From a virus: a DNA stretch of 64,000 nucleotides. Within the stretch, counting starts at the first letter, position 1; each line of letters begins with the position of its first letter. The stretch spans positions 1 to 64,000 of the IMG/VR virus record IMGVR_UViG_3300045988_005108; one strand, written 5' to 3'. Made by a program: the position numbers and the translations under genes. Positions 1,506 to 62,452 of this stretch are shown in pieces. The notes under the pieces were generated by a model. The model ran no database searches. It saw only the letters and a list, made by a program, of their open reading frames with translations, and was not told where the DNA came from.

Positions 1506-1553
1506 TTATGGCAAGAAGAACAGGTAGAGCAAAGCCCATGACAGCTAAAGCTG

Positions 1554-2066: not shown

Positions 2067-2070
2067 TAAG

Positions 2071-2104
2071 AAAGGGTAAGAGATAATCTTACCCTTTCTT
2101 TTTG
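2071..2104 (+). terminator. rho-independent terminator
   Basis: AAAGGGTAAGA-GATAA-TCTTACCCTTT perfect 11-bp hairpin, then CTTTTTG, located 5 nt after the stop at 2066. Confidence 0.75.
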
Positions 2105-2179
2105 CCTATATTGCAAGTATTTTACTTATATAAGTAAAAGCAATTTATTTACCATGTTGTAGATATGCAAAACTTTACT

Positions 2180-2187
2180 TACCTTTG
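2180..2187 (+). promoter_or_regulatory. Bacteroidota-type -7 promoter box (TAnnTTTG) candidate
   Basis: TACCTTTG lies 31 nt upstream of the ATG at 2218, in a 150-nt non-coding gap after a terminator. The motif alone is expected by chance dozens of times in 64 kb, so only the placement supports it. Confidence 0.45.
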
Positions 2188-2217
2188 CACTGTTTTAAGA
2201 ACAAAAGGTAGAAGAAT

Positions 2218-3384: not shown

Positions 3385-3426
3385 GCCTATAATATAGAGT
3401 AAAATAACTGATAAATTTAAGTAAAA

Positions 3427-4938: not shown

Positions 4939-4943
4939 TGATA

Positions 4944-4985
4944 AAGGGGGAGTAGGACAAGCTCCTACTTTCCCTTATTTTATTT
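4944..4985 (+). terminator. rho-independent terminator
   Basis: AAGGGGGAGTAGGA-CAAGC-TCCTACTTTCCCTT (14 bp including 2 G:U pairs), followed by ATTTTATTT. Confidence 0.7.
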
Positions 4986-5005
4986 CAATAAGTTAAGGAG
5001 AAGAT

Positions 5006-6034
5006 ATGGCAGAAAAGAAAATGGAAGAGAAGGTGGACTATACTGTACCTGACTTTGATATAGACAATACAGAAACTCCACTACAGGAAGTACCAAAAGA
5101 AGAGGCTATTGTAAAAAGCCCTAAGAAGACACAAAAGAAAGTAGAGGTATCTGATGATGCCTTAGTTAGTTGTCTAAGAAATGAGAAAATTATTGTAAGA
5201 CATGTACCTAAGCTGACAGGTATGTGGGGTAATAACCCTAAGCATGTATTGTCAGGAGGTATGGCAGAAGGTGCAGTTAGAACATTTGTAGTACCAAGGT
5301 TATCTTCAGGTATGTTTGTTAATGTCCTTACAGACAAGGAAAAGACATTTCTTGAGGAAATAATGGGTCTTGAATATAATGCACTAAGTATCTATAAGAA
5401 GGTAGATAATTTCTGGGATGATTCCAATGAAAATGGTATTAATAAGGTAAGGTTGACAAAGCAGGATAACTACTTCAATCTATCTGACCCAGAGGATTAT
5501 ATCAGATATAAGATACTATTAGCCAACAAGGATTATATTGCTCCTTCACTGCAAGTATTGCAAGATACTCCTAAGGCTACTTACCAGTTTGTTATCATTT
5601 CTGAAGGTGAAGAGACTAAGGTTGCCAAGAACAACATGAGCACTACAATGATGTGCTATAAGGAATTTGGTAAGATTGAGGATGATATTGATACATTAAG
5701 AGTTATTGTTGAGACTATTGATGGCAGACCTACATCACAGACTGCTAAACTTGAGTTCTTGCAGACTAAGGTTAATAGCTTGATACAGGCTGATAGCAAG
5801 ATATTCTTAAAGGTTATTACTGACCCAATGCTTTCTACAAAGGTTCTTATCAAGAAAGCTATAGAGGCAGGTCTGATTTCTAATAGAGGTAATTACCTAT
5901 ATTTGAGAAAAGATAATACTCCACTTTGTGAGGCTAATGAAGAGCCTACATTGAATGTAGCAGCTAAATACTTAAACTCTCCTAAGCATCAAGAACTATT
6001 GTTTACCTTGCAAGCAAGAGTAAAGAAGACTTAG
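5006..6034 (+). CDS. virion-module protein, function unknown
   Basis: 342-aa ORF with an ATG start, co-directional and tightly packed within the structural block. Confidence 0.6.
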   Translation: MAEKKMEEKVDYTVPDFDIDNTETPLQEVPKEEAIVKSPKKTQKKVEVSDDALVSCLRNEKIIVRHVPKLTGMWGNNPKHVLSGGMAEGAVRTFVVPRLSSGMFVNVLTDKEKTFLEEIMGLEYNALSIYKKVDNFWDDSNENGINKVRLTKQDNYFNLSDPEDYIRYKILLANKDYIAPSLQVLQDTPKATYQFVIISEGEETKVAKNNMSTTMMCYKEFGKIEDDIDTLRVIVETIDGRPTSQTAKLEFLQTKVNSLIQADSKIFLKVITDPMLSTKVLIKKAIEAGLISNRGNYLYLRKDNTPLCEANEEPTLNVAAKYLNSPKHQELLFTLQARVKKT

Positions 6035-6048
6035 ATAAAATAATAAGT

Positions 6049-7203
6049 ATGACAACACAGGAATTTTCTAATCAATTTGATATATTATATAATAATGCAA
6101 GCAATAGTGCACCTGGATTAGATGAATATGAAAAGTCTGTAATACTTACAAAAGCAGAAAAAGATTTAGTAAGAGATTACTTTAATAGTAGAACTGTTAA
6201 AACAGGAGAAGGATTTGATGATAGTCAAAAAAGACAATATGATTTTAGCACATTATTAAGAACTGTCAAATTAGAATTAAAATCTCTATTATTAATAGAT
6301 TTTAATGGATATCAAAAGGATTTTAATATCTTTGATAATAGAAGTCTTATATATGTAGCTCCTCCTGATTTCTTTTTATCTATAAATGAAAGTATTATAG
6401 ATAATAATAATAGAAGATACTCTGTATTGCCTATATCTTATTCTGAATATAACAGATTAATGTTAAAGCCTTATGGTTATCCATTAAAAAGACAAGCATG
6501 GAGAATTATATCAGATAGTTCTCCTACATTAGGAGAATATTCATGTACTTATGTAGAATTTCGGTCAGGTACTAGTAGGTTTCTTATAGTAATAAGAAGT
6601 AAAAGTTCTAAAGATTTATTTTTTCATATAAGGAGAGATTCATTAAGTACAGGTAATACATTAAAAGACCCTATAATAACAGTAAAGGACAAGTTTATAG
6701 ATATTCAACTACTAATTCCCAAAGACAGAATGCTTAATTATTGGAATATGTATTTACAGAATGAGGATGCTCTTAAAAAAGGAAAACTAGATGAATATAT
6801 ATATCCGCTAGATGGTGCTATGAACGGAGCTTGGACTACTGAAGACATAAAACCTGTTGATATATATATACCTTCTTATAAAACACAAACAGGAGAATCA
6901 GTATCTGCGCCTGTATTTGAAATTATAGGTAATTTTCCTTCTTTTGAAGTAGAATACAATATGAGATATGTAAGAACTCCTAAGCCAATAATATTAGTAG
7001 ATTTAAGCGAAGTTCAAGAAGGATTATCTATTGATGGATATAATAAAATTACAGAGTGTGAATTACCAGCAAATATGCACGAAGAAATATTACAAAGAGC
7101 TGTAGAATTAGCTAAAGCTACTTATCAAGGAGACTTGAACTCTATTATACAAACAGGCAATATAAGTGGTACTGAATTAGGATATCAAATTAAACAAAAC
7201 TAA
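6049..7203 (+). CDS. virion-module protein, paralog A (low-GC copy with a large central insertion)
   Basis: The N-terminus MTTQEFSNQFDILYN..LDEYEKSVILTKAEKDLV and C-terminus RYVRTPKPIILVDLS..ECELP..ILQRAVELAKA parallel the next gene. Confidence 0.6.
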   Translation: MTTQEFSNQFDILYNNASNSAPGLDEYEKSVILTKAEKDLVRDYFNSRTVKTGEGFDDSQKRQYDFSTLLRTVKLELKSLLLIDFNGYQKDFNIFDNRSLIYVAPPDFFLSINESIIDNNNRRYSVLPISYSEYNRLMLKPYGYPLKRQAWRIISDSSPTLGEYSCTYVEFRSGTSRFLIVIRSKSSKDLFFHIRRDSLSTGNTLKDPIITVKDKFIDIQLLIPKDRMLNYWNMYLQNEDALKKGKLDEYIYPLDGAMNGAWTTEDIKPVDIYIPSYKTQTGESVSAPVFEIIGNFPSFEVEYNMRYVRTPKPIILVDLSEVQEGLSIDGYNKITECELPANMHEEILQRAVELAKATYQGDLNSIIQTGNISGTELGYQIKQN

Positions 7204-7205
7204 CA

Positions 7206-7919
7206 ATGACAACTGAAGAATTTTCTAATGAGTTTGACACCTTACTGAATAGCTATTCTACCATAGAGGCATTTGGAAAGACACCCAGCACTACTGAGCT
7301 TGATGAATATGAGAAATCTGTATTCCTCACTAAGGCTCAAGAAGATATAGTGATAGGTATGTATAATGGTAAGAATCCATTTGGAGACTCATTTGAGAAG
7401 ACTGAGGAAATCAGAAGGTACTTGAGTACCCTAATAAAGACTTACACAACTAATGACAAGAAAACAGGATATACAGGACTATCCAAATCCTCAGTATTCT
7501 TTGAATTACCTAAAGATGATGACTTATGGTTTATAACCTATGAATCAGTTAATTTGAAAGATGATAAATTAGGATGTATAAGTGGTGAAGATGTCTCTGT
7601 AGTACCAATTACTCAAGATGAGTACCATAGAATAAGGAAAAATCCTTTCAGAGGTACTAATGAAAGAAGAGCTTTAAGGCTTGATTTGAGTGGTAAGGTA
7701 GTAGAGATAATATCAAAATATAATGTGGAGAAGTATCTTGTCAGATACCTTTCAAGACCTACTCCCATTATATTAATTGATTTGACAGATAACCTGTCAA
7801 TCAATGGCGTGAGTGTAAAAACAGAATGTAAACTGAACCCTGTAATACATAGAGCTATACTTGAGAGAGCAGTAAAACTTGCCATCATGAGTAGGGTTCC
7901 AAGTACAGGAAAAGAATAA
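7206..7919 (+). CDS. virion-module protein, paralog B
   Basis: MTTEEFSNEFDTLLN..LDEYEKSVFLTKAQEDIV and VRYLSRPTPIILIDLT..ECKLN..ILERAVKLAIM. Starts 3 nt after paralog A. Confidence 0.65.
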   Translation: MTTEEFSNEFDTLLNSYSTIEAFGKTPSTTELDEYEKSVFLTKAQEDIVIGMYNGKNPFGDSFEKTEEIRRYLSTLIKTYTTNDKKTGYTGLSKSSVFFELPKDDDLWFITYESVNLKDDKLGCISGEDVSVVPITQDEYHRIRKNPFRGTNERRALRLDLSGKVVEIISKYNVEKYLVRYLSRPTPIILIDLTDNLSINGVSVKTECKLNPVIHRAILERAVKLAIMSRVPSTGKE

Positions 7920-7947
7920 AACTATTGTATAATTTAATTAAATTAAT

Positions 7948-8973
7948 ATGGCGACATTTAGTACAAATCAGGTAAGACATCTTTATGTGGCAAAAGAACT
8001 AAAGAGTTCTCGTGTACTTGCAGCAGATGCTGCTGGCTCTATTGCAGTAAAGAGTGATACTGCAAAGAATCATCTGTACTTTGAATACAAGGGTGCTGAC
8101 AACTTGATGAGAAGTGACTTAATTGACATCGAGAATATCCTTTATGCTAAGGCTACTGATGCTGATGATATGGCACATGAGTTGAAGGCAGTTACAGTAA
8201 CTCTTGATAGTGAGGTAAATGCAGGTGCTCCTGTAGCTGGACAGGATTATATCCTAAGAATTGCATTCAAGCAGTATGTAGGTATGTCTGACGAGGACCA
8301 ATACTTCAAGTATGGTATGGTACATGCTTATGCAGGCATGACAGCTTCAGACTTTTATAAGAAGCTGGCTCTATCACTGGCTAAGAACTTCAGTAGAGAG
8401 ATAGTTCCTCTTGTTAAGTTTGTCTTGACAAATTCTGATGATGAGGCAGTTCCTGTAGATGCTACTACAAAGGAAAGCTCTCTAACTGAGACTTATAAAG
8501 CCCTTGTTATTGATGAGGTTGAGCAGCCTTGGAGACTTGGTGTTATGGAGCAAAATCCTGTATATTTTGAGGTACAGCCTGTTCCAGTTACTGTAAATGG
8601 TGATGAGAGAATTTGGGGTAAGGTAGAAGATACTGAGCCTGCTGGTATCATTGCTAATGGCAAGAAGATTGCAGACCTTGAGTACTTCTGCATGGGTGAG
8701 AGAGGTGATATTTATAGAGGAGTTGGCTATCCTAACAATATTCCTACCACTTACCTTGTAGACCCAACTGTTAAGTATAATGTGATTGACATCCACTATG
8801 CTTATGTAGGTAGCAATGAGAGTGTACAAAAGTCTGAAAAGACAATTACTCTTGTAGTACCAAAGATAGGCACTAAGAATAATGTAAGTAATGCTCTTGC
8901 TAATAGCATCATAGCAGCTATTAATACTGCAACAGGTTTAACTATAACAGAACTTGATAAGTCTGCTAGCTAA
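7948..8973 (+). CDS. abundant virion protein candidate (capsid-associated?)
   Basis: 341-aa ORF followed immediately by a strong terminator, like the capsid candidate. The function is inferred only from position. Confidence 0.5.
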   Translation: MATFSTNQVRHLYVAKELKSSRVLAADAAGSIAVKSDTAKNHLYFEYKGADNLMRSDLIDIENILYAKATDADDMAHELKAVTVTLDSEVNAGAPVAGQDYILRIAFKQYVGMSDEDQYFKYGMVHAYAGMTASDFYKKLALSLAKNFSREIVPLVKFVLTNSDDEAVPVDATTKESSLTETYKALVIDEVEQPWRLGVMEQNPVYFEVQPVPVTVNGDERIWGKVEDTEPAGIIANGKKIADLEYFCMGERGDIYRGVGYPNNIPTTYLVDPTVKYNVIDIHYAYVGSNESVQKSEKTITLVVPKIGTKNNVSNALANSIIAAINTATGLTITELDKSAS

Positions 8974-38133: not shown

Positions 38134-38901
38134 TTAATTACTTAATGATACGGCAAACAAATATTTATTATATTTTCTATCTAAGTAAACATGGGCATTA
38201 TTATAAATAGTATTTAAGAATTGTATTGCTTTACTGTGAGTAAATTTAGTTTCATAATAGTTGTTGTTACCATATTTAGTTACTAAGTTTTCAATACCAG
38301 TATACTTCAAACAATTTGTAACTATATTTAGAGTTCCTACTATATTAACTCTTGGATATGGTTTAGTACAATTCTTATGTTCATCTATTCCAACACTTCC
38401 ATCACCATCAAATACTCCTCTTACAAAAGGAATAACCAATGAAGAATCTTGGAATATACTCATACTTGGGAATTTCAAAATTAAAGATTTTCTTGGAGTG
38501 CATCCATAAGATATTAACATATCTTTTAAGTGCTTACTTTTATTCATTATACTATATGATGTATATTCTTTGTAATGTTTAATTCTTATTGGATTCTTTG
38601 AACTAATAAACTCTTTGAATTTCTCTAAGTGCTCTCTGTCTATCAATCCAATCTCTAAACTACCATTATCAGAAATACAACCATCAGCATAAATGAAACC
38701 TAGCCAATATGCTTTCTCCTCAGTATCAATATTATCAAATATATGCTCATTGAATTGAGCTTTTGATAGTTTGATATTAAAAGATTTAAGTATATAAGAT
38801 ACTGTAGTATAGTATATACCTAATTCTTCTGCAATTTCCTTAACTCTTTTTCCTTGTAAAGCAAGTTCTTTTACTTTTTCATAATTTACTCTTTTCTTCA
38901 T
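38134..38901 (-). CDS. LAGLIDADG homing endonuclease (double-motif) with N-terminal HTH
   Basis: Motif 1 YWLGFIYADGCI, motif 2 FVRGVFDGDGSVG. N-terminal KRVKEIAEELGIYYTTVSYILK. Very AT-rich. Confidence 0.9.
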   Translation of the reverse strand: MKKRVNYEKVKELALQGKRVKEIAEELGIYYTTVSYILKSFNIKLSKAQFNEHIFDNIDTEEKAYWLGFIYADGCISDNGSLEIGLIDREHLEKFKEFISSKNPIRIKHYKEYTSYSIMNKSKHLKDMLISYGCTPRKSLILKFPSMSIFQDSSLVIPFVRGVFDGDGSVGIDEHKNCTKPYPRVNIVGTLNIVTNCLKYTGIENLVTKYGNNNYYETKFTHSKAIQFLNTIYNNAHVYLDRKYNKYLFAVSLSN

Positions 38902-48850: not shown

Positions 48851-49116
48851 TCAAATGTTATAGTCCATCCATAACCCTCAATAAAGTCTATAGATTTGAC
48901 AACTGCCTTGGCTTCTTCAAGCTCACATCCTACCACAATCATTGGACCTCCTGATGGGTCAATAAACTTATTTCCTCCCTGAACTTCACCTACTCTTAAT
49001 GTGGGTACATCAGTTTTAAGTACATAAGTTTTAGAATCAGTACCATCAGGTTTAGGCATTTTCTTGAGGTAGTTTATAGCTTCATATCTGGACCTAAGTT
49101 TTATAATATCTTCCAT
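48847..49116 (-). CDS. small hypothetical protein
   Basis: 89-aa ORF. Its stop overlaps the polymerase start by 4 nt. Confidence 0.55.
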   Translation of the reverse strand: MEDIIKLRSRYEAINYLKKMPKPDGTDSKTYVLKTDVPTLRVGEVQGGNKFIDPSGGPMIVVGCELEEAKAVVKSIDFIEGYGWTITFE

Positions 49117-49613
49117 TATTTCTTAGAATAAGCAATAAGACTTTCAAAGTCAAAGACATACTTATACTTTTGGAAGAACAGGCTACCAAGAATACCATGA
49201 ATCTGTACACCAGACTCTTCCTTGACAATAGCAAAGGCATCATCCAAGTTATGAATACAGAAATCACCTACAAATTCTTGTCCCTTATAAGTGATTGTCA
49301 TTTCACAGAACTCAGTGTTCACTTTATTGCCTTCAATTCCTGTTACATCCATGTCTTTTGCCTCTATCTTCTTATGGTCAAGAAGAGGAAGAATAGAGCT
49401 GTTGATTTGGGAGATGTTACTTCCAGTGTCCAACAAGAAGTTAAGTTTCTTATCTCCATTATAGAATGTTACCACAGGCAACTCTACCAAATCCATAGCC
49501 TCTTTGAAAGACATATTTACCCTTTTACTTTGCTTACAGTAATCTTCTATACCATTAATGATAATAGATAGAATGATTACTGCAAGTATAATACCAATTA
49601 CTTCTAATACCAT
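49116..49613 (-). CDS. membrane-anchored retropepsin-like aspartic protease
   Basis: N-terminal TM helix VIGIILAVIILSIIINGI. LLDTGSNIS (D-T/S-G motif) and a distal GILGSLFF flap-like motif. Confidence 0.65.
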   Translation of the reverse strand: MVLEVIGIILAVIILSIIINGIEDYCKQSKRVNMSFKEAMDLVELPVVTFYNGDKKLNFLLDTGSNISQINSSILPLLDHKKIEAKDMDVTGIEGNKVNTEFCEMTITYKGQEFVGDFCIHNLDDAFAIVKEESGVQIHGILGSLFFQKYKYVFDFESLIAYSKK

Positions 49614-50172: not shown

Positions 50173-50629
50173 GTTTCCAAAATTTACTCGTTATATCTAT
50201 TAATTCTCCATCACTAATCTTATAGAATCTCTGATTGGTAGTCCTACTGTTAAGTGGACCAAACTCTTCCTTATATGGTCCAAGTTTTATATAATCAAAG
50301 TTGCACAGGTCAATATTATTATTCAACTCTTGCCTCCCACTATACCAAGCTACCTTTATGTAATTATAATGGTTAATAATGAAAGAAGCCAAAGTATTTA
50401 TTTTGTCTGGCTCTGCATCACCTCCCATGAGAGCTATACAGCTAATTCCACTATTCCTCTTGATAAGCTTTCCCACTTCATTGAAAGTCAATTCAGTACC
50501 AATATCCTGTGCCAAGTAAGAGCTATGACAGCCCTTACATTGACATGGACAATTAGATATGTTGATAGCAAGAGTTACTTCATCAGGAATTTCCTGAAAA
50601 ACAATTTTAGTGTCTACGTATTTTAACAT
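50156..50629 (-). CDS. nrdG: anaerobic ribonucleotide reductase activating protein (radical SAM)
   Basis: CPCQCKGC contains CxxxCxxC. The start is set at MLKYVDTK (50629) because an upstream remnant duplicates exactly this N-terminus. The track start is 50647. Confidence 0.85.
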   Translation of the reverse strand: MLKYVDTKIVFQEIPDEVTLAINISNCPCQCKGCHSSYLAQDIGTELTFNEVGKLIKRNSGISCIALMGGDAEPDKINTLASFIINHYNYIKVAWYSGRQELNNNIDLCNFDYIKLGPYKEEFGPLNSRTTNQRFYKISDGELIDITSKFWKHETEN

Positions 50630-51228
50630 TGCTCTTCTAATTTCCAAATATAACCTTTGAATACACCATCTCTTTTAATAGCCCTTGAAAGTGAGTTATA
50701 ATTGCCATTTACAGATTTAACAGCATCTTTTAATGTATCAAATCTTTCCAAGAACTCACCATCTCTTGTAAATTTACATACACAAGTGTGGTGGGCTAAA
50801 TAATCATGTTTGTTACAAGATTGTAAGAAGATAACTTGTTCTTTAGTCAAGGTTTTGCCCTTAGCTTTATGTGTCCTTGACCTTTTTAGATTACTCTCTT
50901 TGGATTGTTTAAGTCCAAGAGTCCCACCTCCTCCTAATGTTAAATTATATCCAAAATTAGGGTCATTAGATTTATAGACAGAAATGTACTTCTGCTCCAA
51001 AGTATCAAGTTTTATCTTTAACTCCTTAACATTTGCATCATCTATCTCCTCTAATATCTCATAGGCAAACTTATCATATCCATATTTCTTTATAGCATTA
51101 TGGAAATATGACCTCCATGAATTAAGAGTATGTTTATGTGCATATATTCTCTTATACTCATTTATAGTTTGACCAATATAGACCTTATTATTGACTTGAT
51201 TAGTGTATTTATAGATTATACCTTTCAT
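50623..51228 (-). CDS. GIY-YIG homing endonuclease (free-standing)
   Basis: GIIYKYTNQVNNKVYIGQT..YAHKH is a GIY-YIG module. The C-terminal FDTLKDAVKSVNGNYNSLSRAIKR looks like an IENR/NUMOD-type DNA-binding helix. Confidence 0.85.
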   Translation of the reverse strand: MKGIIYKYTNQVNNKVYIGQTINEYKRIYAHKHTLNSWRSYFHNAIKKYGYDKFAYEILEEIDDANVKELKIKLDTLEQKYISVYKSNDPNFGYNLTLGGGGTLGLKQSKESNLKRSRTHKAKGKTLTKEQVIFLQSCNKHDYLAHHTCVCKFTRDGEFLERFDTLKDAVKSVNGNYNSLSRAIKRDGVFKGYIWKLEEQC

Positions 51229-56090: not shown

Positions 56091-56768
56091 TTAATACTCT
56101 TCGTACCATTTTATTGGTACACCATAAATTCCTTTTACTCTATTACTTATATCAATAAATAGTTGGTGTGGCATCTTAGTGCCACTCCTTGCAAAGTATG
56201 CAGGATGTTCAATCTCTATAATGTGATTGAATCTACTATTGATATAAGGTTTGAAAGTTTGAGCCTGTCTGCCAAATAGCACATATATTATAGCTGTGTC
56301 ATACTCAGACAAGTTCTTTAATAGTTTAGCTATGAAAGGTCTCCATATCATCACATGGGAGCCTATCCTGTTCATCTCTACAGTAAGAGCAGAGTTTATC
56401 ATTAGTATCCCTTGTTTAGCCCAACTCTCTAAAGTCTGGTCAAAGGTAATACAATAATGTGGAATCTCAAAATTAATGGCTGCTTCTTTAACAACATTTA
56501 ATGAAGGAGACAAGTTATCCTCATTAACCTCCTTCCTGTTACCAAAAAGTATGCCAGTTGCAACTCCCTTTTGTGGATAGGGGTCTTGACCTAACATAAC
56601 TACTTTTAAGTCCTTGAGGGGACAAAGCTCAAATGCCCTGAACACATCAGACTGGGCAGGACACAGAGGCTTTCTCCTGTATTCTTGTCCAACCTTAGCC
56701 ATTACATTATTAAGCTCTGCCCTGTCAATTACCTTCATCCAATCTCCAAAGTATTCATCCAATGTCAT
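56091..56768 (-). CDS. uracil-DNA glycosylase (family 1-like)
   Basis: VVMLGQDPYP (GQDPY water-activating loop) and a C-terminal EHPAYF motif (HPSP-like). Confidence 0.8.
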   Translation of the reverse strand: MTLDEYFGDWMKVIDRAELNNVMAKVGQEYRRKPLCPAQSDVFRAFELCPLKDLKVVMLGQDPYPQKGVATGILFGNRKEVNEDNLSPSLNVVKEAAINFEIPHYCITFDQTLESWAKQGILMINSALTVEMNRIGSHVMIWRPFIAKLLKNLSEYDTAIIYVLFGRQAQTFKPYINSRFNHIIEIEHPAYFARSGTKMPHQLFIDISNRVKGIYGVPIKWYEEY

Positions 56769-57535
56769 AGCAACATCATTATGTCCTCAATATTGTCAAT
56801 AAGGCATTCATTCAGTGCATCATTAGAGCAGGCAGATGGAGTAGGCTTGATAGGCTCTATAAAGAACTTATCAAAATTATCTACTATGACCTTTACTTTT
56901 CTATCCTCTGGATTACTACTGAAACTATAATTGTTTCTTGGGAAATTTACATCCCTACTTGTATAATAAGGAATTAATTTCCTGGTGATGCCTTTATTAA
57001 TCAATTTATCAGGCTCTAAGAATACTTTAGGGCTGATGTGGCACACAGGTCTGTAATAGACCATAGTATTATCATTATCCTCAGTATGTACACTTCTTGC
57101 AGTTAATGTACATAATAGTAATGGAGTATAACTCTCATCAAAAATGATACCTTTGCCACCATAATACACTTCACCTTTATTGGTGATTATCTTCTGTAAT
57201 TTTTTATCATATCCAACATTAGTAAACAATTGCTTTATGATACTATCAAAAGTTCTTCTCTCTTGGCTTGGTGTATTATTATATAATGGCAATATTATCT
57301 TCTTGATTCCCATAATTGTAGGAGAAGCCAAATTATCCGAGACCAACTTTTCAAAGTGTTCTCTTGCAATCACAGGTATCTCTACCTCATTACCATTTAC
57401 TTCAACGATAAGGCTTCTTCTAAATACATTGTTACTATCAAGAGACAGATTCATTTCAAGCTGACCTGGTGATTCAGACTCACTGCTATTGAAAACACTA
57501 CTTACACTATATATAAATCCTGTGCTAAATTCCAT
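56765..57535 (-). CDS. hypothetical protein with a candidate ThiS/MoaD-like beta-grasp segment ending in an internal Gly-Gly
   Basis: Residues ~41-127: SLIVEVNGNEVEIPV...KIITNKGEVYYGG, followed by a 129-aa extension. Its start overlaps the E1-like stop. Confidence 0.55.
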   Translation of the reverse strand: MEFSTGFIYSVSSVFNSSESESPGQLEMNLSLDSNNVFRRSLIVEVNGNEVEIPVIAREHFEKLVSDNLASPTIMGIKKIILPLYNNTPSQERRTFDSIIKQLFTNVGYDKKLQKIITNKGEVYYGGKGIIFDESYTPLLLCTLTARSVHTEDNDNTMVYYRPVCHISPKVFLEPDKLINKGITRKLIPYYTSRDVNFPRNNYSFSSNPEDRKVKVIVDNFDKFFIEPIKPTPSACSNDALNECLIDNIEDIMMLL

Positions 57536-58671
57536 TATACTTCAGTTTTAAGATACATTGTTTCTGCATTATATGTGGTAAGAAATGGCAGGTCTCTGTC
57601 AATGAGAGGCTCACATTGATTAGCACAGAAGTTTACAAACAAATTAACCATATAGGATGCAATCATATTTGCACAGAAGGTAGTTTGTTTATAGGAGCAG
57701 ACAGTTGCATCAGCTTCTGTATCAGAGAATAGAAACTCATTATTGTACCTATTGATATTGTACTCATCATCTCCCTTGATACATAATACTTGAAACTCTT
57801 CTGCTGCTAATCTACCATCAATAAACAAGCAATTCTTTCTCTCCTTTTCTGGCTTGGATTGAACATGATTTACCCATTTATTAAAGAAAAGTCTTCTTGC
57901 TGCCATATTATCAAAGCCACAAATCATAATATCTGATGCCTCAGATTCAGTGGTAAATCTCTCACTTATTGCAAAGACACTGCTATAGCCAGCATAGTTT
58001 CTAATCATCTCAGTCAGTGCAGATACCTTAGGTCTACCTAAATCAGATTGACCATATAACTGACCTGACATATTGACAGCTTCTACTATGTCATTATCAT
58101 AGATAAACATAGAAGCTGGCTTCATCCTTGCCAATAAAAAGCCTACATAACTACCAATACCACCCACACCTGCCAAAATAATAGTTTTCTTCTGAATGTT
58201 CTCATACCAAATGGCAGAACTAAACCTACTTGTAGCTTCATCTACAAGCAAAGTTGCAGAGTTTGTAGGTATCTCTTGATGTGCATCTTCTACAGCTTGA
58301 CCAAGGATAGCCTGTTCCTCTTCTGAAAGTTCAAAGCTAATGCTGTCACCATCATCTTCTACAGAGTTACCTGTCCTTATAGCCCAAGCCTCTTCAATTA
58401 AACTTTTGAAGTGTTCATTGACAAAGATTCTACCTGTTACACCTTCAGTGCTACTATATACAATTTTATAGGTATTAGGTACACCATCCAAACCAATAAT
58501 ATTAAGAGAGGCAATGAGACCCATTCTAATATTATTAAGGACACTATTGAAAGTGTTAAGGTCAGCATATCCCACCTCATTATATTCATGAACATTATTC
58601 TCATTGAGACTTTCCATAAGGGAATTATAAGCCTCAGTTGCTTCTTGTGGAATTGTTACTTCTTCATTCAT
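57535..58671 (-). CDS. ThiF/MoeB/E1-like adenylyltransferase with a novel N-terminal domain
   Basis: LAGVGGIGSYVG Rossmann loop, IYDNDIVEAVNMSGQ, GRPKV and GFDNMAARR. The N-terminal ~150 aa are unassigned and contain no Cys. Confidence 0.8.
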   Translation of the reverse strand: MNEEVTIPQEATEAYNSLMESLNENNVHEYNEVGYADLNTFNSVLNNIRMGLIASLNIIGLDGVPNTYKIVYSSTEGVTGRIFVNEHFKSLIEEAWAIRTGNSVEDDGDSISFELSEEEQAILGQAVEDAHQEIPTNSATLLVDEATSRFSSAIWYENIQKKTIILAGVGGIGSYVGFLLARMKPASMFIYDNDIVEAVNMSGQLYGQSDLGRPKVSALTEMIRNYAGYSSVFAISERFTTESEASDIMICGFDNMAARRLFFNKWVNHVQSKPEKERKNCLFIDGRLAAEEFQVLCIKGDDEYNINRYNNEFLFSDTEADATVCSYKQTTFCANMIASYMVNLFVNFCANQCEPLIDRDLPFLTTYNAETMYLKTEV

Positions 58672-59876
58672 AATATTAAGTATTTCTGAAGTGCATCAAT
58701 ATACCCTTTGATATAATCATTTTCAGGGAGTTTTGTAAGCTCCTCTATCATATCATGGGCACAAATAGCACAAATTTCTGTTTCATCAAAGCCAAGCTCT
58801 TCTAATTTCTCATCTGTTGTATACCATGTCAGATATTCTGTGTAGGTATCTGCCCACATTTTGAAATTTTTCATGCCTTCTTCACCCTTACCAAATCTCT
58901 TTTCATACAATGCAGACATTGACTTAGCCCATTTGGTAATGTCAATCTTACTATCATTAGAGATAATAATGCTACCTGTAATCAATTGAAGTACAAGAGA
59001 CTTCAAAGTGACTTTATCAAATGTCACCTGACCATAAGGTAGATTATAGTCATCATCAAATGGCAAGTCATCTACATTATCAAAGAGAGTTGACTGAACC
59101 ACCTTAGATTTATTATCTTCCTTCTTGACAAGATTTGCTGGACCTGCCTTTGTACCATAAGAGTTAGCAATAACAGGCTTATAGCCACCTTGATATACAG
59201 GTGTCTGAGCTTTCTTGGCTTTCTCTGCTTTAACTTGCTTGATTTCCTCAAGTCTTGCTGCCATATCTGGGAATGAAAATGTTTCATCTTCATTCTCTAT
59301 TTTAAGATAGAACCATTCAATCTCATCTGCATCACTTATATACTCCTTAGTATCTTGCTTTTCACCATCACCAAAGAACTCATAAGATACAGATTCCATG
59401 GTCTGCTTTGACTTGATTCTCCTTGTGATTGCAGCAGTATAGGAACCTGCATTATTCACAATAAGAGACACAAAATTATTCCTATCCCTACCTTCTTCCT
59501 TTAGAGTAGCAGTGTCTGTTCCACTAAAGAAAGTGCTCATATTATTATGTGAATGGATTAATCCCATTTGACAATCAAGCAGTTCAGGATTTTCACACAT
59601 ATAGGATATTACATCAGGATTCATATCAAACTCTGTATAGGCTTGAGTTCCAATATCCATGATGTAAATATCTACACACCTTATTACAAGGTCATCATTT
59701 TCAAATGAACCTTCATGTGTAAAGAACAATGTACCTGACCATTCAGTATTCCATACCTTCTGACAGGCAAACCTTATCTTTCTTTCCACTTCTGCTGGAA
59801 TAATCAGCTTATAATTATAGGTACCTGACTTCTGTACCAGGCTGATTACTTTCATGGGTTGCTTTGTTTCTTCCAT
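58668..59876 (-). CDS. JAB/MPN+ (JAMM) metalloprotease with a C-terminal extension
   Basis: HSHNNMSTFFSGTD = HxH-x7-S-xx-D (59514-59555), with an upstream Glu in TEWSG. A C-terminal ~230 aa are unassigned. Confidence 0.8.
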   Translation of the reverse strand: MEETKQPMKVISLVQKSGTYNYKLIIPAEVERKIRFACQKVWNTEWSGTLFFTHEGSFENDDLVIRCVDIYIMDIGTQAYTEFDMNPDVISYMCENPELLDCQMGLIHSHNNMSTFFSGTDTATLKEEGRDRNNFVSLIVNNAGSYTAAITRRIKSKQTMESVSYEFFGDGEKQDTKEYISDADEIEWFYLKIENEDETFSFPDMAARLEEIKQVKAEKAKKAQTPVYQGGYKPVIANSYGTKAGPANLVKKEDNKSKVVQSTLFDNVDDLPFDDDYNLPYGQVTFDKVTLKSLVLQLITGSIIISNDSKIDITKWAKSMSALYEKRFGKGEEGMKNFKMWADTYTEYLTWYTTDEKLEELGFDETEICAICAHDMIEELTKLPENDYIKGYIDALQKYLIL

Positions 59877-61116
59877 ATCTGTAATTTAATACTTTGAGTA
59901 TTGTTGTTAATATGTATAGTGCAATTTGAGTATTAAGAATTATGCTCTTGTTCTCATTTCTCACTTCTACAATATCTGTAATATCTACAGTTATTTCTCT
60001 TCCCTTGAATACACAAACTTTCTTGCCTATATGCTGAGCATAGTTATTTACATTATTCCTGCTCCTATCATAGTAAATCCTTCCATTGTCTATGATACAC
60101 TCTCTCAAGATACCATGTTCCTTCAAGTCTGCAAATTCAGTAGTCAATTCCCTTTTATTGAATTGGTCATTATACCACTTGATAAACTCATTACTGATAA
60201 GCACAATAAATTCAATAAGTGACATTCCAATAGAATAGGAGCCATTGACATAATTAAATTTGAGTCTCTTAGAGTTAATGAAATACCTCACAAACTCCTT
60301 GAATTTGTCAGAAGTGATGTTAACTTCATAGTAACCAGGAAACAGATATGTAATGAATCTATTTATACCTGTTTCCATATCACTGGTGCCTAAATTCTCC
60401 AAGTAATGATAAGGTCTCCCAGCAACAGATTCTACAGTTACATACTTACTTAATTCAAGGCAAAACATATTCCACATATCCTCATCATAATCCCTATTGA
60501 GGGCACTAATAGTACCATTAATAGGACCACTACCTGTACAAGGATTTTGGAATTTGGTGAAATCACTTTTAGGGATACTACTGACATGACTATGCAAATA
60601 ATTACTCTTGAAGTGAAGCAGGGTATATTCTGACCTGTTAAGTGTGAATCCACCTCTCAATGTACCATCACACATTACTTTCACCTTAGCCCACAGGTGG
60701 TTAATATCCACAAATCTGTCATGCTCATTAGTTACTCTTACATGAGGAAAATGTACAAGAATGAATATGTCATTGAACTTAGCATTACCAATTCTTTCCT
60801 CTACTGTAGTATTTGTAAGCACATTAACAACCTCCTCTACTTGGTCTTTAGGTAAATCAGTAATGGATATTGCTCCATACATGCTCCAGTCATTCCTATT
60901 CATGCCTACAATACTACCATTAGGAATATAAGTAGATAGAGGTTCTATATTCATCCAAGATTTGAACTTATCCAAACTCCAATATCCTTGCATATCAACT
61001 TTATCCTCCCCAAAGAAGTCATTGAATATGCCTAATACTCGGAGTGGTCTATCCATCAAGGAGTTATATAGTTCCTCTATCTTCTCCTCAATTAATTTAA
61101 TTGTTTCTCCACTCAT
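59815..61116 (-). CDS. hypothetical protein, weak E2/UBC-like resemblance
   Basis: The start is placed at MSGETIKL (61116), just after a terminator. The track start at 61149 lies inside the terminator stem. A beta-rich stretch is followed by LHSHVSS..FQNPCTGSG. Confidence 0.55.
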   Translation of the reverse strand: MSGETIKLIEEKIEELYNSLMDRPLRVLGIFNDFFGEDKVDMQGYWSLDKFKSWMNIEPLSTYIPNGSIVGMNRNDWSMYGAISITDLPKDQVEEVVNVLTNTTVEERIGNAKFNDIFILVHFPHVRVTNEHDRFVDINHLWAKVKVMCDGTLRGGFTLNRSEYTLLHFKSNYLHSHVSSIPKSDFTKFQNPCTGSGPINGTISALNRDYDEDMWNMFCLELSKYVTVESVAGRPYHYLENLGTSDMETGINRFITYLFPGYYEVNITSDKFKEFVRYFINSKRLKFNYVNGSYSIGMSLIEFIVLISNEFIKWYNDQFNKRELTTEFADLKEHGILRECIIDNGRIYYDRSRNNVNNYAQHIGKKVCVFKGREITVDITDIVEVRNENKSIILNTQIALYILTTILKVLNYRYGRNKATHESNQPGTEVRYL

Positions 61117-61124
61117 ATTACTGT

Positions 61125-61168
61125 AAAAAAAAAGTAGGTAAGGGGGCATTTCTAACCTCCTTACCTAC
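61125..61168 (-). terminator. rho-independent terminator
   Basis: Minus strand: GTAGGTAAGGAGG-TTAGAAATG-CCCCCTTACCTAC, followed by T9. Lies 5 nt after the HNH stop. Confidence 0.7.
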
Positions 61169-61172
61169 TATA

Positions 61173-61712
61173 TTATTTTGCAAATTTCCAAACAAAGCCA
61201 TAAGATTGAGATACTGAGACCCACTTACCTCCTCTATAATATCCTCCTCTACAACAATTAAGTATTGGAGCAGTATTATATCCTAACTCTCTTTGTATTT
61301 GAGAAGCTGAGTCATAAGTCTTTACAAGAATATTTGCCCTATATTGCGCTATTTTTAGTCCTCTCTTTTTACTAATTTTCTTCAAAGAGAGCCTTTCTTG
61401 AGCACTTCCATAATTTACATTGTAACTTTGACTACACCACTCAAGATTGCTCACAACATTATTAATAGGGTTCTCATCTTTATGATTTACATAAGGTAAG
61501 TTTGAAGGATTATCAATAAAAGCCTGTGCTACAAGTCTGTGTACAAGATAATGTTTCCCTACATTTTCCTTATATAGGCTTACAGATGAATATCCTCTGT
61601 TATTCTTGTGCTTGCTTAGCAAAGCATTCCTACTTAGAGATTTTACATTCCCTAAGTTGGAAACTTCATATAACCCTTCATATCCTTGTATAGGTCTCCA
61701 TATTTCAACCAT
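61173..61712 (-). CDS. HNH homing endonuclease with NUMOD4 domain (free-standing)
   Basis: WRPIQGYEGLYEVSNLGNVKS (NUMOD4) and HRLVAQAF..VNHKDENPINNVVSNLEW (HNH_3). Confidence 0.85.
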   Translation of the reverse strand: MVEIWRPIQGYEGLYEVSNLGNVKSLSRNALLSKHKNNRGYSSVSLYKENVGKHYLVHRLVAQAFIDNPSNLPYVNHKDENPINNVVSNLEWCSQSYNVNYGSAQERLSLKKISKKRGLKIAQYRANILVKTYDSASQIQRELGYNTAPILNCCRGGYYRGGKWVSVSQSYGFVWKFAK

Positions 61713-61717
61713 ATAAT

Positions 61718-62452
61718 TTAGCCTACAAAATTAAACATATCATCAATCTCATCATCAGAGTAAGGAGAAGCTGACTTAGGCTTGTACTCCTCAGAAGGTT
61801 CAGCACTTACTGCAACCTTACCCCCAAGAATGCCAAGCACTTCCTCTTTCTCATCCTCTTCAATTGTGCCATTGTCCTCAAGAACTTCCACCAACTTACT
61901 GATAGCAGCTCTTGCTACAGTATCAACACATTCACCACCATTACTTGCAGGTGCTACAGGAGCACTTGCTTCAGGAGTATTTACAGGTGTTTCCTCCTTC
62001 TTAGCCTCAGCTTTAGCCTCAGCTTTAGGAGCAACAGGTGCAGGCTTTAAAGCACCACTGTCCTGTACTAATGCAATAAGGTCAGCAGTTTTACACATAG
62101 TGAAGTTCTTACCAAACTTCTTTACACAAGCACTCTGCAAACTCATAGACTTGATAGCATTATATGCCTCAGTTCTGCTCATTGCTCCTGACCTAATCTT
62201 CTTATTAGTGTTAGTAAGCATGAAAACCAACTCATTGGTGACAATTCCCTTGTAAGGAACATCATGTGGCAGAACTGAAGCATCATTCTTCAATTCAACC
62301 TTTGATGTGCCTTCAAAGAAGGTCATATCATCATAGTCAATATTATTGGCTCTCAAGTCACTCTTCAACTCAGCAAGGGTCGTGGCTGCTGACATAATAA
62401 CACTCTTCTTCTGATTCTTAGTCTGTACGACTGTAATTTTTCTTGCTTCCAT
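61718..62452 (-). CDS. hypothetical protein with acidic C-terminal tail (SSB-like tail?) and a possible N-terminal beta-grasp
   Basis: 244 aa with an Ala/Pro/Lys/Glu linker (KAEAKAEAK). The C-terminus SDDEIDDMFNFVG resembles acidic SSB-type tails. The function is not established. Confidence 0.55.
   Translation of the reverse strand: MEARKITVVQTKNQKKSVIMSAATTLAELKSDLRANNIDYDDMTFFEGTSKVELKNDASVLPHDVPYKGIVTNELVFMLTNTNKKIRSGAMSRTEAYNAIKSMSLQSACVKKFGKNFTMCKTADLIALVQDSGALKPAPVAPKAEAKAEAKKEETPVNTPEASAPVAPASNGGECVDTVARAAISKLVEVLEDNGTIEEDEKEEVLGILGGKVAVSAEPSEEYKPKSASPYSDDEIDDMFNFVG

What the first reader, a model, noticed from the sequence alone, without database searches (positions are those of the whole stretch)
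56765..61116. Ubiquitin-like conjugation cassette (E2-like? / JAB-MPN+ / E1-ThiF / Ubl-GG) carried inside a crAss-like phage replication module
Four co-directional minus-strand genes have overlapping or abutting boundaries (59815-59876 overlap, 58668-58671, 57535), which implies translational coupling. The 58668..59876 gene has an intact JAMM signature HSH-x7-S-xx-D (59514-59555) with an upstream Glu. The C-terminal ~230 aa of 57535..58671 read as a ThiF/MoeB/E1 adenylation domain: LAGVGGIGSYVG at 58141-58176, then IYDNDIVEAVNMSGQ, GRPKV and GFDNMAARR. The flanking genes supply a candidate E2 and a candidate Ubl, described in separate findings. The order E2-JAB-E1 is the same as in bacterial Bil operons (BilB-C-D). 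The E1+JAB pairing also recalls CBASS Cap2/Cap3 and the PRTRC cassettes of Bacteroidota conjugative elements. All of those are host or ICE systems. Here the genes sit between UDG and primase of a phage with no lysogeny genes in view. The phage may therefore tag its own or host proteins, or mimic or reverse a host Ubl-based defence. I do not recall such a cassette being described for Crassvirales, but I cannot search.
Basis: partly seen in the sequence, partly recalled or inferred. Interest (0 to 1): 0.85.

Follow-up and report, generated by a model that had tools for sequence, protein, structure and literature searches.

The report
Phage-encoded ubiquitin-like protein activation cassette
A group of abundant gut crAss-like phages carries its own ubiquitin-like protein next to the enzymes that would cut it free and activate it, machinery so far described in bacteria as anti-phage defence, though the predicted ubiquitin-like protein is a different gene from the one first proposed.

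Summary
The four overlapping minus-strand genes are real. Two assignments hold. B (58668..59876) has an intact JAMM/JAB motif, and its profile matches CSN5, JAMM1 and Rpn11. C (57535..58671) ends in a single-domain ThiF/E1 adenylation domain, closest to UBA5, MccB and Cap2.

Two assignments fail. D (56765..57535) is an orphan, and its "GG" is not conserved (GG/GA/GC/GS). A (59815..61116) matches no E2 by Pfam, PDB profile or Foldseek. It is an orphan family with a conserved Y-x-[HY]-S-H…C-x-G signature.

The ubiquitin-like protein lies outside the finding's coordinates, in the next gene upstream, X (61718..62452). Residues 1-89 model with high confidence (pLDDT 91) as a beta-grasp matching ubiquitin, SUMO and DIX. 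A floppy tail ends in an invariant Gly (KKI[KR]SG). In four phage genomes, X is split two codons after that Gly.

X-A-B-C keep the same order in Steigviridae (Asinivirinae), in FpV4-like Flavobacterium phages and in more distant phage contigs. X and B occur in the same 74 of 50,697 phage records.

Most likely mechanism: the JAB cuts X after Gly89, the E1 adenylates that Gly, and A's cysteine may act as the carrier. This is inferred, not shown. I found no published description of the cassette.

The parts
61718..62452 (-). Gene X (244 aa): a precursor made of an N-terminal ubiquitin-like domain, a three-helix region, a low-complexity linker and an acidic C-terminal tail. It lies outside the finding's coordinates.
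   Evidence: ORF. The family has 803 representative clusters, all with the domain at residue 1. X and B occur in the same 74 phage records.
62186..62452 (-). Ubl (beta-grasp) domain of X, residues 1-89, ending in KKIRSG (62186..62203). Gly89 is the predicted processing and activation site.
   Evidence: AF2 model pLDDT 91.1 with b-b-a-b-b-b topology and a floppy tail at 85-88. Foldseek vs PDB gives DIX 7.6e-4, ubiquitin 1.5e-3, SUMO, TINCR and UBX, all at prob 1.00. G89 is invariant and S88 is >=90% conserved in 148 sequences. Natural gene splits fall 2 codons after G89.
62066..62176 (-). Three-helix region of X (residues 93-129), possibly HeH/SAP-like. It would be released as part of a separate protein if X is cut at Gly89.
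   Evidence: Helices 93-102, 106-113 and 122-129 in the AF2 model. Conserved R93 and KN[FY]T..T..L motif. The HeH assignment is read from the sequence pattern only.
61721..61759 (-). Conserved acidic-aromatic C-terminal tail of X (SDDEIDDMFNFVG).
   Evidence: Conserved S-x-x-E-I-D-D-M-F in relatives. The resemblance to SSB-type interaction tails is an inference.
61173..61712 (-). HNH/NUMOD4 homing-endonuclease gene inserted between X and A. It is not part of the system and is absent at this site in relatives.
   Evidence: Pfam NUMOD4 1.3e-14 and HNH_3; PHROG HNH endonuclease. Absent in L001, L002 and L007.
61124..61169 (-). Intrinsic-terminator-like hairpin plus T9 run just upstream of A. An equivalent hairpin lies between X and A in relatives.
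   Evidence: RNAfold gives -21 kcal/mol here. Equivalent hairpin plus T-run in L001, L003 (FpV4), L005 and L007-L010.
59815..61116 (-). Gene A (433 aa): orphan protein with the invariant signature Y173-x-H175-S176-H177 (60586..60600) and C193-x-G195 (60532..60543). Candidate Ubl carrier (E2-like role); fold unassigned.
   Evidence: Invariant residues in 26 sequences and 12 diverse sequences. A distant homologue keeps YSFSH..CIG. AF2 pLDDT 65.8. No E2 or other match in Pfam, PDB or BFVD.
58668..59876 (-). Gene B (402 aa): N-terminal JAB/JAMM metallopeptidase (residues ~14-165; E45 at 59742..59744, H108-S-H110...S118..D121 at 59514..59555) plus a C-terminal helical domain of unknown function.
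   Evidence: Pfam Prok-JAB 3e-4. Profile vs PDB: CSN5 6.8e-5, JAMM1 5.9e-4, Rpn11. Motif invariant in homologues.
57535..58671 (-). Gene C (378 aa): variable N-terminal extension plus a ~230-aa single ThiF/MoeB/UBA5-type adenylation domain. Key residues: R149, G168xGG171 (58141..58176), D192xD194, K215, D254 and conserved Cys325 (57697..57699).
   Evidence: Pfam ThiF 6e-17. NCBIfam ThiF, PRTRC_ThiF and cap2-like hits, all below cut-offs. PADLOC E1-E2 at 8e-12. Profile vs PDB: UBA5 8e-13, MccB, PaaA, TcdA, ThiF, MoeB, Uba1, Cap2, BubCD. Invariant residues.
56765..57535 (-). Gene D (256 aa): orphan protein coupled to C and to UDG. Conserved in Asinivirinae; distant phages have unrelated or unrecognisable ORFs in this position. 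It is not the Ubl.
   Evidence: No Pfam, PHROG, NCBIfam, PADLOC or PDB match. The GG is not conserved. No similarity to the X beta-grasp profile. Not significantly similar to the FpV4 and Dulem genes at that position.

Best explanation
The unit is a phage-encoded, self-contained ubiquitin-like protein (Ubl) processing and activation module of five genes, X-A-B-C-D.

Proposed steps:
1. X is made as a precursor. Its N-terminal 89 residues form a ubiquitin-like beta-grasp with a flexible tail ending ...KKIRSG.
2. The JAB metallopeptidase B cuts after Gly89. This frees the Ubl and a separate protein carrying the helical region and acidic tail.
3. The small, presumably homodimeric E1 (C) adenylates the exposed Gly89 with ATP.
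4. The activated Ubl is passed to the invariant Cys193 of A, which would play the E2-like carrier role, possibly via Cys325 of the E1.
5. From A it is attached to lysines of phage or host proteins during the replication phase. B also reverses the conjugation.
6. D is an accessory or specificity factor, or a target.

Status of each claim. Shown here: the domain identities of B and C, the predicted beta-grasp fold of X, the invariant Gly, the conserved gene order and the co-occurrence. Inferred: cleavage at Gly89, adenylation, the carrier role of A, protein conjugation as the outcome, and all targets.
For: JAB: intact, invariant E...HSH-x7-S-xx-D motif and profile hits to CSN5, JAMM1 and Rpn11.

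E1: Pfam ThiF 6e-17. Profile hits to UBA5 (8e-13), MccB, ThiF, MoeB, Uba1, Cap2 and BubCD. The Arg finger, G-loop, Mg-binding Asp and a conserved Cys are all retained.

Ubl:
- AF2 model of X 1-130 has pLDDT 91, with beta-grasp topology and a disordered tail at 85-88.
- Foldseek matches ubiquitin, SUMO, DIX, TINCR and UBX at prob 1.00.
- G89 is invariant in 148 diverse sequences.
- Stand-alone 91-92-aa Ubl ORFs ending SGKF* or SGIC* occur in cr106_1, L071, L077 and L078. This shows the two halves can function when encoded separately, with only 2 residues to trim.

Linkage:
- X and B are found in the same 74 of 50,697 phage records. C is in those 74 plus 10 records with distant ThiF genes.
- 71 of 80 IMG/VR loci show X-A-B-C-D in one order and on one strand.
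- The order is kept in FpV4, in Dulem virus 41 and in distant MAG contigs, including L099 with ...KSG and YSFSH..CIG.
- Conserved gene overlaps between A/B, B/C and C/D.

Precedent: BilC pre-processes BilA (10.1101/2023.09.26.559546). The Type I Bub JAB cuts a Ubl fusion protein immediately after a conserved Gly, and its E1 has no catalytic Cys domain (10.1101/2024.11.21.623953).

No sulfur-transfer partner genes or tRNA genes are in the window.
Against: - A has no detectable similarity to any E2/UBC family. Its model is only moderately confident (pLDDT 65.8) and shows three long strands rather than a UBC meander.
- The Ubl ends in Ser-Gly, not Gly-Gly.
- The E1 has Gly where canonical enzymes have the Arg of the N-L-x-R-Q motif.
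- A terminator-like hairpin separates X from A-D, so X may belong to a different transcription unit.
- Co-occurrence could partly reflect shared descent of a syntenic replication module rather than function.
- The X model's Foldseek E-values are modest (about 1e-3).
- No cleavage, adenylation or conjugate has been observed.
Confidence: 0.55

Rival explanations
1. Sulfur-carrier pathway. X(1-89) acts like ThiS, MoaD or CysO. The JAB trims it, the E1 adenylates it, and it is converted to a thiocarboxylate. A then uses that sulfur to modify a nucleotide, DNA, tRNA or a cofactor during replication.
For: The E1 is a minimal single-domain ThiF/MoeB type, and its best NCBIfam hits are ThiF models. 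JAB-trimmed sulfur carriers with C-terminal extensions are established biology (CysO/Mec+, QbsE/QbsD; Iyer et al. 2006, PMC1779556). The cassette sits among nucleotide-metabolism genes: NrdD, ThyX, dUTPase, UDG. A carries conserved Cys, His and Ser residues.
Against: No rhodanese domain, cysteine desulfurase or PP-loop ATPase was found among the proteins scanned in the window, and there are no tRNA genes. The tail ends in SG rather than the GG typical of carriers. The top 50 Foldseek hits for X are ubiquitin, SUMO, DIX and UBX rather than ThiS or MoaD. The best PDB sequence match for C is UBA5, a conjugation E1.
Confidence: 0.15
2. Counter-defence by interference. B acts mainly as a Cap3- or BilC-like deconjugase that strips host Ubl or CD-NTase conjugates, and C as an E1 decoy or competitor, so that host CBASS, Bil or Bub-type immunity is disabled. 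The beta-grasp of X is a decoy substrate or just a structural domain.
For: C hits PADLOC Cap2-type E1-E2 models (8e-12) and NCBIfam cap2-like models. All previously characterised bacterial E1/JAB conjugation systems act in phage defence (10.1101/2024.11.21.623953; 10.1101/2023.09.04.556158). A 2026 virome preprint speculates the same for a gut-phage UBA5-like family (10.64898/2026.03.05.709809).
Against: A deconjugase alone would suffice for that job. An intact ATP-binding E1, a strictly co-occurring Ubl with an invariant terminal Gly, and two further conserved genes argue for an active pathway. The PADLOC and NCBIfam matches cover only the generic Rossmann part of the E1 and are far below family cut-offs.
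Confidence: 0.12
3. One reading: A is a UBC-like E2, and D residues ~40-127 are the Ubl, cut after a GG at 126-127.
For: Gene order and coupling. A has a conserved Cys with upstream His residues. D has a YYGG in the window sequence.
Against: D's second Gly is replaced in relatives: GA in DAC15, GC in cr128_1, GS in Kolpuevirus. The motif is embedded in a conserved stretch that continues past it. D does not match the beta-grasp profile or anything else. D is not recognisably conserved in FpV4, Dulem 41 or the distant contigs, whereas X is. No E2 signal was found for A.
Confidence: 0.04
4. Peptide or nucleotide adenylation of the MccB, PaaA or TcdA type: the E1-like enzyme modifies a small peptide or an RNA base rather than a Ubl.
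For: MccB, PaaA and TcdA are among the best PDB hits for C.
Against: These hits cover only the shared Rossmann core, and UBA5 scores higher with the profile. No MccA-like peptide gene or peptide-clamp domain was seen. This model does not explain the strict association with a JAB and a beta-grasp protein.
Confidence: 0.05

Closest known systems
Bil (BilABCD) bacterial ISG15-like anti-phage system
   Same: The component list and gene order are Ubl, carrier, JAB peptidase, E1. The JAB pre-processes the Ubl to expose a C-terminal Gly. No E3 is encoded.
   Different: [quoted passage not shown] BilB is a recognisable E2; A is not. Here the Ubl is fused to a ~150-aa C-terminal protein. The system is carried by a lytic phage in its replication module, not by a bacterial defence island.
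Type I Bub (6E.1 / DUF6527) operons
   Same: The Ubl is made as a fusion and cut by a JAB immediately after a conserved Gly. The E1 is a minimal homodimer type without a Cys domain. BubCD appears among the PDB hits of C (4e-5).
   Different: In Bub the fusion partner is the E2 and the JAB is fused to the E1. Bub includes a DUF6527 serine protease and works through oxyesters. Here the JAB and E1 are separate genes, the fusion partner is a helical, acidic-tailed protein, and no DUF6527 is present.
CBASS type II Cap2/Cap3
   Same: An E1 adenylation domain paired with a JAB. C hits PADLOC and NCBIfam Cap2-type models.
   Different: There is no E2-E1 fusion, CD-NTase or effector. The matches cover only the Rossmann region and are far below family cut-offs.
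PRTRC cassettes of plasmids and conjugative elements
   Same: A small ThiF-family protein, a JAB (PRTRC_A) and a small beta-grasp protein on a mobile element.
   Different: PRTRC_ThiF scores 34 bits against a cut-off of 145, and PRTRC_A 13.5 against 102. There are no hits to PRTRC B, C, E or F and no ParB. This is not a member.
Lambda/T1 tail-assembly TAPI (Ubl) plus TAPK (JAB-NlpC)
   Same: A phage-encoded Ubl with a conserved C-terminal Gly, followed by a linker and a further domain, and predicted to be released by a phage JAB.
   Different: That pair has no E1, so no activation or conjugation. It lies in the tail-morphogenesis module, not the replication module.
UBA5/UFM1 and ThiF/MoeB sulfur-carrier systems
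   Same: A single-domain homodimer-type E1 with a Cys in the adenylation domain. JAB trimming of carriers occurs in some sulfur pathways.
   Different: There are no sulfur-relay partners. The Arg of the N-L-x-R-Q motif is replaced by Gly.

Membership tests
JAB/JAMM (MPN+) metallopeptidases | Active-site motif E ... H-[ST]-H-x7-S-x2-D | tested here: met
   E45, H108-S-H110, S118 and D121 are present. Every residue from H108 to D121 is invariant in all 7 aligned homologues. E45 is kept in the 6 that cover it; the DAC15 ORF as annotated starts downstream.
JAB/JAMM (MPN+) metallopeptidases | Significant profile similarity to known members | tested here: met
   Family profile vs PDB: CSN5 6.8e-5, JAMM1 5.9e-4, Rpn11-like 0.015. 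Single-sequence Pfam Prok-JAB scores 21 bits, below the 25-bit cut-off.
ThiF/MoeB/E1 adenylation superfamily | Pfam PF00899 above the gathering score | tested here: met
   62 bits against 28.1, E=6e-17, residues 156-299.
ThiF/MoeB/E1 adenylation superfamily | Catalytic residues: Arg finger, GxGxxG loop, D-x-D, N-L-x-R-Q Arg, Lys, Mg-binding Asp | tested here: inconclusive
   R149, G168xGG171, D192xD194, K215 and D254 are invariant, but the R of N-L-x-R-Q is Gly203 in all members. Mapping to MoeB and ThiF residues is from my knowledge of those structures.
Canonical conjugation E1 (Uba1/BilD type) | Separate catalytic-Cys domain and ubiquitin-fold domain | tested here: not met
   The conserved core is only ~230 aa. 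One conserved Cys (C325) lies within the adenylation domain.
Ubiquitin-like beta-grasp modifiers | Beta-grasp fold | tested here: met
   X 1-130: AF2 pLDDT 91.1. Foldseek matches ubiquitin, SUMO, DIX, TINCR and UBX at prob 1.00, TM (target-normalised) up to 0.72, E 8e-4 to 7e-3. There is no sequence-level hit to any Ubl family.
Ubiquitin-like beta-grasp modifiers | Flexible C-terminal tail ending in a conserved Gly that is exposed for activation | tested here: inconclusive
   G89 is invariant, the tail is disordered in the model, and natural splits fall at G89+2. Exposure by cleavage has not been demonstrated.
E2/UBC superfamily (including Prok-E2 A-E) | UBC fold or profile match | tested here: not met
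   None of 26 A-family members hits a UBC or Prok-E2 Pfam model at E<=10. The profile finds nothing in PDB. Foldseek finds no E2 in PDB or BFVD. The model's confidence is only moderate.
E2/UBC superfamily (including Prok-E2 A-E) | Invariant catalytic Cys with an upstream His-containing motif | tested here: met
   Y173-x-[HY]-S176-H177 followed by C193-x-G195 is conserved in all 12 diverse homologues and in L099. This is suggestive only.
Bil system | BilA Ubl, BilB E2, BilC JAB, and BilD E1 with inactive-adenylation, active-adenylation and Cys domains | tested here: not met
   The order matches, but the E1 architecture and the E2 do not. Definition taken from 10.1101/2024.11.21.623953.
Type I Bub system | Ubl-E2 fusion, JAB-E1 fusion, DUF6527 protease | tested here: not met
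   The JAB and E1 are separate genes. The C-terminal half of X is helical, not an E2. There is no DUF6527 hit.
PRTRC system | NCBIfam PRTRC_ThiF, A, B, C, E and F plus ParB above cut-offs | tested here: not met
   PRTRC_ThiF 34.3 against 144.75. PRTRC_A 13.5 against 101.8. The others give no hit.
CBASS Cap2/Cap3 | E2-E1 fusion with a CD-NTase and an effector | tested here: not met
   Only the E1 Rossmann region matches PADLOC E1-E2 models. No CD-NTase is in the neighbourhood.

The most novel reading that the evidence does not exclude
Lytic crAss-like phages run their own ubiquitin-like protein conjugation pathway during infection. It would use a Ubl released from a fusion precursor, a minimal E1, and a structurally new class of Cys-dependent carrier or ligase (protein A) unrelated to UBC E2s, to tag host or phage proteins. 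This would be the first virus-of-bacteria-encoded Ubl conjugation system, turning machinery known as bacterial anti-phage immunity into a phage tool.
Probability: 0.35. Interest if true: 0.9.

Novelty: new variant of a known kind. Interest (0 to 1): 0.74.

Why it matters
In bacteria, Ubl/E1/JAB conjugation systems (CBASS Cap2/3, Bil, Bub) are currently understood as host defences against phages. Here a complete-looking Ubl-processing and activation set sits in the replication module of abundant, strictly lytic gut phages.

If it conjugates proteins, phages use the same chemistry offensively or to regulate their own replication. Protein A would then be a new kind of Ubl carrier.

The system is directly testable. 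The cultured phages crAss001 (gp75-gp79), DAC15/DAC17 and FpV4 all carry it. Trypsin would leave a diagnostic Ser-Gly remnant on modified lysines.

It also corrects database annotation: the E1 is labelled 'thiamine biosynthesis protein' and the other genes 'hypothetical'.

Tried and rejected
- Pfam, PHROG, NCBIfam and PADLOC scans gave nothing for A, D or X.
- Profile searches of A, D and the X Ubl domain against PDB sequences gave nothing significant.
- The AF2 model of A (pLDDT 65.8), searched with Foldseek against PDB and BFVD, matched only its own orphan family. The E2 idea could be neither confirmed nor excluded.
- D could not be modelled.
- hhalign of the D family against the FpV4 and Dulem genes in the same position, and against the X beta-grasp profile, was not significant.
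- PRTRC membership was rejected on NCBIfam scores.
- The scan of bacterial genomes with the JAB motif returned only MAG contigs with phage-like content, and no cellular counterpart.
- Literature searches combining crAss terms with ThiF, PRTRC, ubiquitin or JAMM found no description of the cassette.
- The Yutin 2018 paper could not be retrieved under the id I tried.

Full report
**The observation.**
The window is a crAss-like phage. Its closest GenBank record is bajarodcaudo virus 1 at 79% nucleotide identity, followed by Kehishuvirus (crAss001-like) phages.

The four minus-strand ORFs are as described:
- A, 59815..61149 as listed by the ORF listing
- B, 58668..59876
- C, 57535..58671
- D, 56765..57535

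The junctions are A/B, a 62-nt overlap; B/C, ATGA; and C/D, TAATG. D also overlaps the UDG gene by 4 nt. The quoted motifs sit at exactly the quoted coordinates.

A's true start is 61116, which is also the finding's upper bound. Homologues are 433 aa long. The upstream ATG at 61149 lies in the loop of a terminator hairpin.

**B and C.**
B carries E45...H108-S-H110-x7-S118-xx-D121. These residues are conserved in all homologues that cover them, down to 34% identity. Single-sequence Pfam Prok-JAB is just below threshold (21 against 25 bits). A family profile, however, hits CSN5 (6.8e-5), archaeal JAMM1 (5.9e-4) and Rpn11 in PDB, aligned over the active site.

The last ~230 residues of C are a ThiF-family adenylation domain (Pfam 6e-17). 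A family profile hits UBA5 (8e-13), MccB, PaaA, TcdA, ThiF, MoeB, Uba1, Cap2 and BubCD. NCBIfam and PADLOC hits (ThiF, PRTRC_ThiF, Cap2-like) cover only the Rossmann part and are far below family cut-offs.

Invariant residues are R149, G168xGG, D192xD194, K215, D254 and Cys325. The Arg of the canonical N-L-x-R-Q motif is Gly in every member. There is no separate Cys domain or ubiquitin-fold domain. This is a minimal E1 of the MoeB, UBA5 or BubD type.

**D is not the Ubl.**
D has no hit in any library or in PDB. Its 'GG' (residues 126-127) reads GG, GA, GC or GS in relatives. It lies in the middle of a conserved Y-x-G-x-x-G-[IY]-I stretch. D shows no similarity to the beta-grasp profile found below. 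The genes occupying its position in FpV4 and Dulem virus 41 are not detectably homologous. I could not model D.

**A is not demonstrably an E2.**
A belongs to an orphan family with 2,123 close hits. Its invariant residues are Y173, S176, H177, C193 and G195. E229, S230, G233 and P235 are conserved in most members.

None of 26 members hits a UBC or Prok-E2 Pfam model, even at E<=10. The profile finds nothing in PDB.

The AF2 model is moderate (pLDDT 65.8; the 110-230 core scores 72-95). It shows helices, three long strands, a loop carrying the His and Cys residues, and then two helices. Foldseek finds no E2 in PDB or BFVD, only A's own family. A conserved Cys with an upstream His fits a thiol carrier, but that is inference.

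**The predicted Ubl is gene X, upstream of A.**
X (61718..62452, 244 aa) lies outside the finding's span. It is separated from A here by an inserted HNH homing-endonuclease gene (61173..61712) that relatives lack at this site.

Its first 89 residues are conserved in every cassette-bearing phage examined and end in K-K-I-[KR]-S-G. The family has 803 representative clusters. G89 is invariant and S88 is >=90% conserved in 148 diverse members.

With that alignment AF2 gives pLDDT 91.1. The topology is beta-beta-alpha-beta-beta-(hairpin)-beta, followed by a disordered tail at 85-88 and then a three-helix region. Foldseek matches DIX, ubiquitin, SUMO, TINCR and UBX at probability 1.00, with E from 8e-4 to 7e-3 and target-normalised TM up to 0.72. 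No sequence-level Ubl match exists.

Four genomes have X split two codons after Gly89:
- In cr106_1 and L071 an HNH gene sits in the gap. The Ubl ORFs end SGKF* and SGIC*.
- In L077 and L078 the split persists (SGKF*) without an intact HNH gene.
- In L071 and L077 the C-terminal half has its own start codon; L078 was not inspected downstream.

So the two halves work when encoded separately, and the boundary is exactly the conserved Gly.

After Gly89, X has a possibly HeH-like helical region, a low-complexity linker and a conserved acidic-aromatic tail (SDDEIDDMF).

**Conservation of the cassette.**
Among 50,697 phage records, X(1-130) and B each hit 74 records, with identical organism breakdowns. 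C hits those 74 plus 10 records with distant ThiF genes. A hits 45 records; the 29 Flavobacterium phage homologues are too divergent for tblastn, but blastp against FpV4 gp52 gives 2e-9.

The carriers are:
- Steigviridae subfamily Asinivirinae (Kehishuvirus including crAss001 gp75-gp79, Kolpuevirus, Mahstovirus, Mahlunavirus, Wulfhauvirus DAC15/17)
- FpV4-like Flavobacterium phages
- two unclassified phages

No record named as Intestiviridae or p-crAssphage appeared in the rows listed.

In IMG/VR, 71 of 80 loci show X-A-B-C-D in one order and on one strand. The other 9 stop part-way through the order, and several of them are visibly cut by a contig end. In the bacterial genome collection the JAB motif found only MAG contigs with phage-like content. 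X-A-B-C order is kept even at 33-46% identity. A very distant contig (L099) keeps Ubl(...KSG)-A-like(YSFSH..CIG)-JAB-E1.

A terminator-like hairpin plus T-run lies between X and A in the window and in L001, L003, L005 and L007-L010. This could give excess Ubl over enzymes. It could also mean that X is a separate transcription unit.

**Mechanism.**
The best-supported reading is a phage-borne Ubl processing and activation module. B would cut X after Gly89, and C would adenylate that Gly. A's Cys193 is the best candidate acceptor, with lysine conjugation as the likely outcome and B as the eraser.

Each step has a direct precedent. BilC pre-processes BilA (10.1101/2023.09.26.559546). The Type I Bub JAB cuts a Ubl fusion right after a conserved Gly and works with a Cys-less minimal E1 (10.1101/2024.11.21.623953).

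The sulfur-carrier alternative is weakened by the absence of sulfur-relay genes or tRNA genes in the window and by the ubiquitin- and SUMO-like structural neighbours. It is not excluded. None of the enzymatic steps has been shown.

**Comparison and novelty.**
The cassette works like Bil or Bub but is a member of neither. The E1 lacks the Bil multi-domain architecture. The JAB and E1 are not fused as they are in Bub. There is no DUF6527. The carrier candidate is not a recognisable E2. It is not PRTRC and not CBASS.

The only phage precedent I found is the lambda/T1 tail-assembly Ubl plus JAB pair, which has no E1 (PMC1779556).

The crAss genomics paper and review I could search do not mention ThiF, JAB or ubiquitin. 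GenBank labels the E1 'thiamine biosynthesis protein' and the JAB 'metalloprotease domain'. One 2026 virome preprint notes in passing an unnamed gut-phage family that matches UBA5 structurally.

I therefore rate this a new variant of a known kind. It is of fairly high interest because it sits in a lytic phage and is testable in cultured phages.

Noticed in passing
window 61173..61712; L006:2335-2850; L071:7291-7803; L077/L078 ~7277-7438; Fpv1/Fpv20: HNH/NUMOD4 homing-endonuclease genes repeatedly invade this cassette. In the window the insert lies between X and the X-A terminator. In cr106_1 and L071 it lies inside X, exactly 2 codons after Gly89. L077 and L078 keep the split but have lost the HNH ORF. 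In Fpv1 and Fpv20 an annotated 'endonuclease' splits the JAB gene.
   Followed up: partly
window 61124..61169 (-); L007:1515-1560; L003:3545-3585 and others: A strong hairpin plus T-run (terminator-like) is conserved between the Ubl gene X and gene A from Asinivirinae to FpV4. It may attenuate transcription, so that the Ubl is made in excess of the enzymes.
   Followed up: partly
L096:~750-5300 (MAG contig JBMNLZ010000002.1, 639 kb): A regular repeat array runs directly into a truncated X gene, which is followed by intact A-B-C-D-UDG. ORF translations in the array repeat 'REQDPLKQGLK' and 'SRARSIKTRIET', which looks CRISPR-like. This could be a chimeric assembly through a spacer, or an array carried next to phage DNA.
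   Followed up: no
L097 (Puia sp. MAG contig DASYBV010000020.1, 373 kb), cassette at 5341-8823: X-A-B-C sit inside a phage-like replication module (RecT-like, primase, PD-(D/E)XK, PolA) on a very long contig binned to a Chitinophagaceae genome. This may be a prophage or episome, or a mis-assembly.
   Followed up: no
window 49116..49613 (-): A retropepsin-like aspartyl protease (Pfam Asp_protease_2, 7e-5, just below the cut-off) lies next to the dUTPase gene. Dulem virus 41 has the same pairing. In eukaryotes this protease type (Ddi1) is Ubl-associated, so a link to the cassette is conceivable but untested.
   Followed up: no
window 38134..38901 (-), 50623..51228 (-): Further homing-endonuclease-type genes (LAGLIDADG_3 with an HTH; GIY-YIG) are scattered in the replication and nucleotide-metabolism module, alongside NrdD, ThyX, PolA and dUTPase.
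   Followed up: no
window ~30000: GC skew and AT skew change sign at about 30 kb, coinciding with a switch from plus-strand to minus-strand genes. This is the divergent-module layout typical of crAss-like genomes.
   Followed up: no
window 61721..61759 (-): The C-terminus of X carries a conserved acidic-aromatic tail (S-x-x-E-I-D-D-M-F) reminiscent of SSB-type partner-binding tails. This suggests that the released C-terminal half docks onto a replication protein.
   Followed up: no
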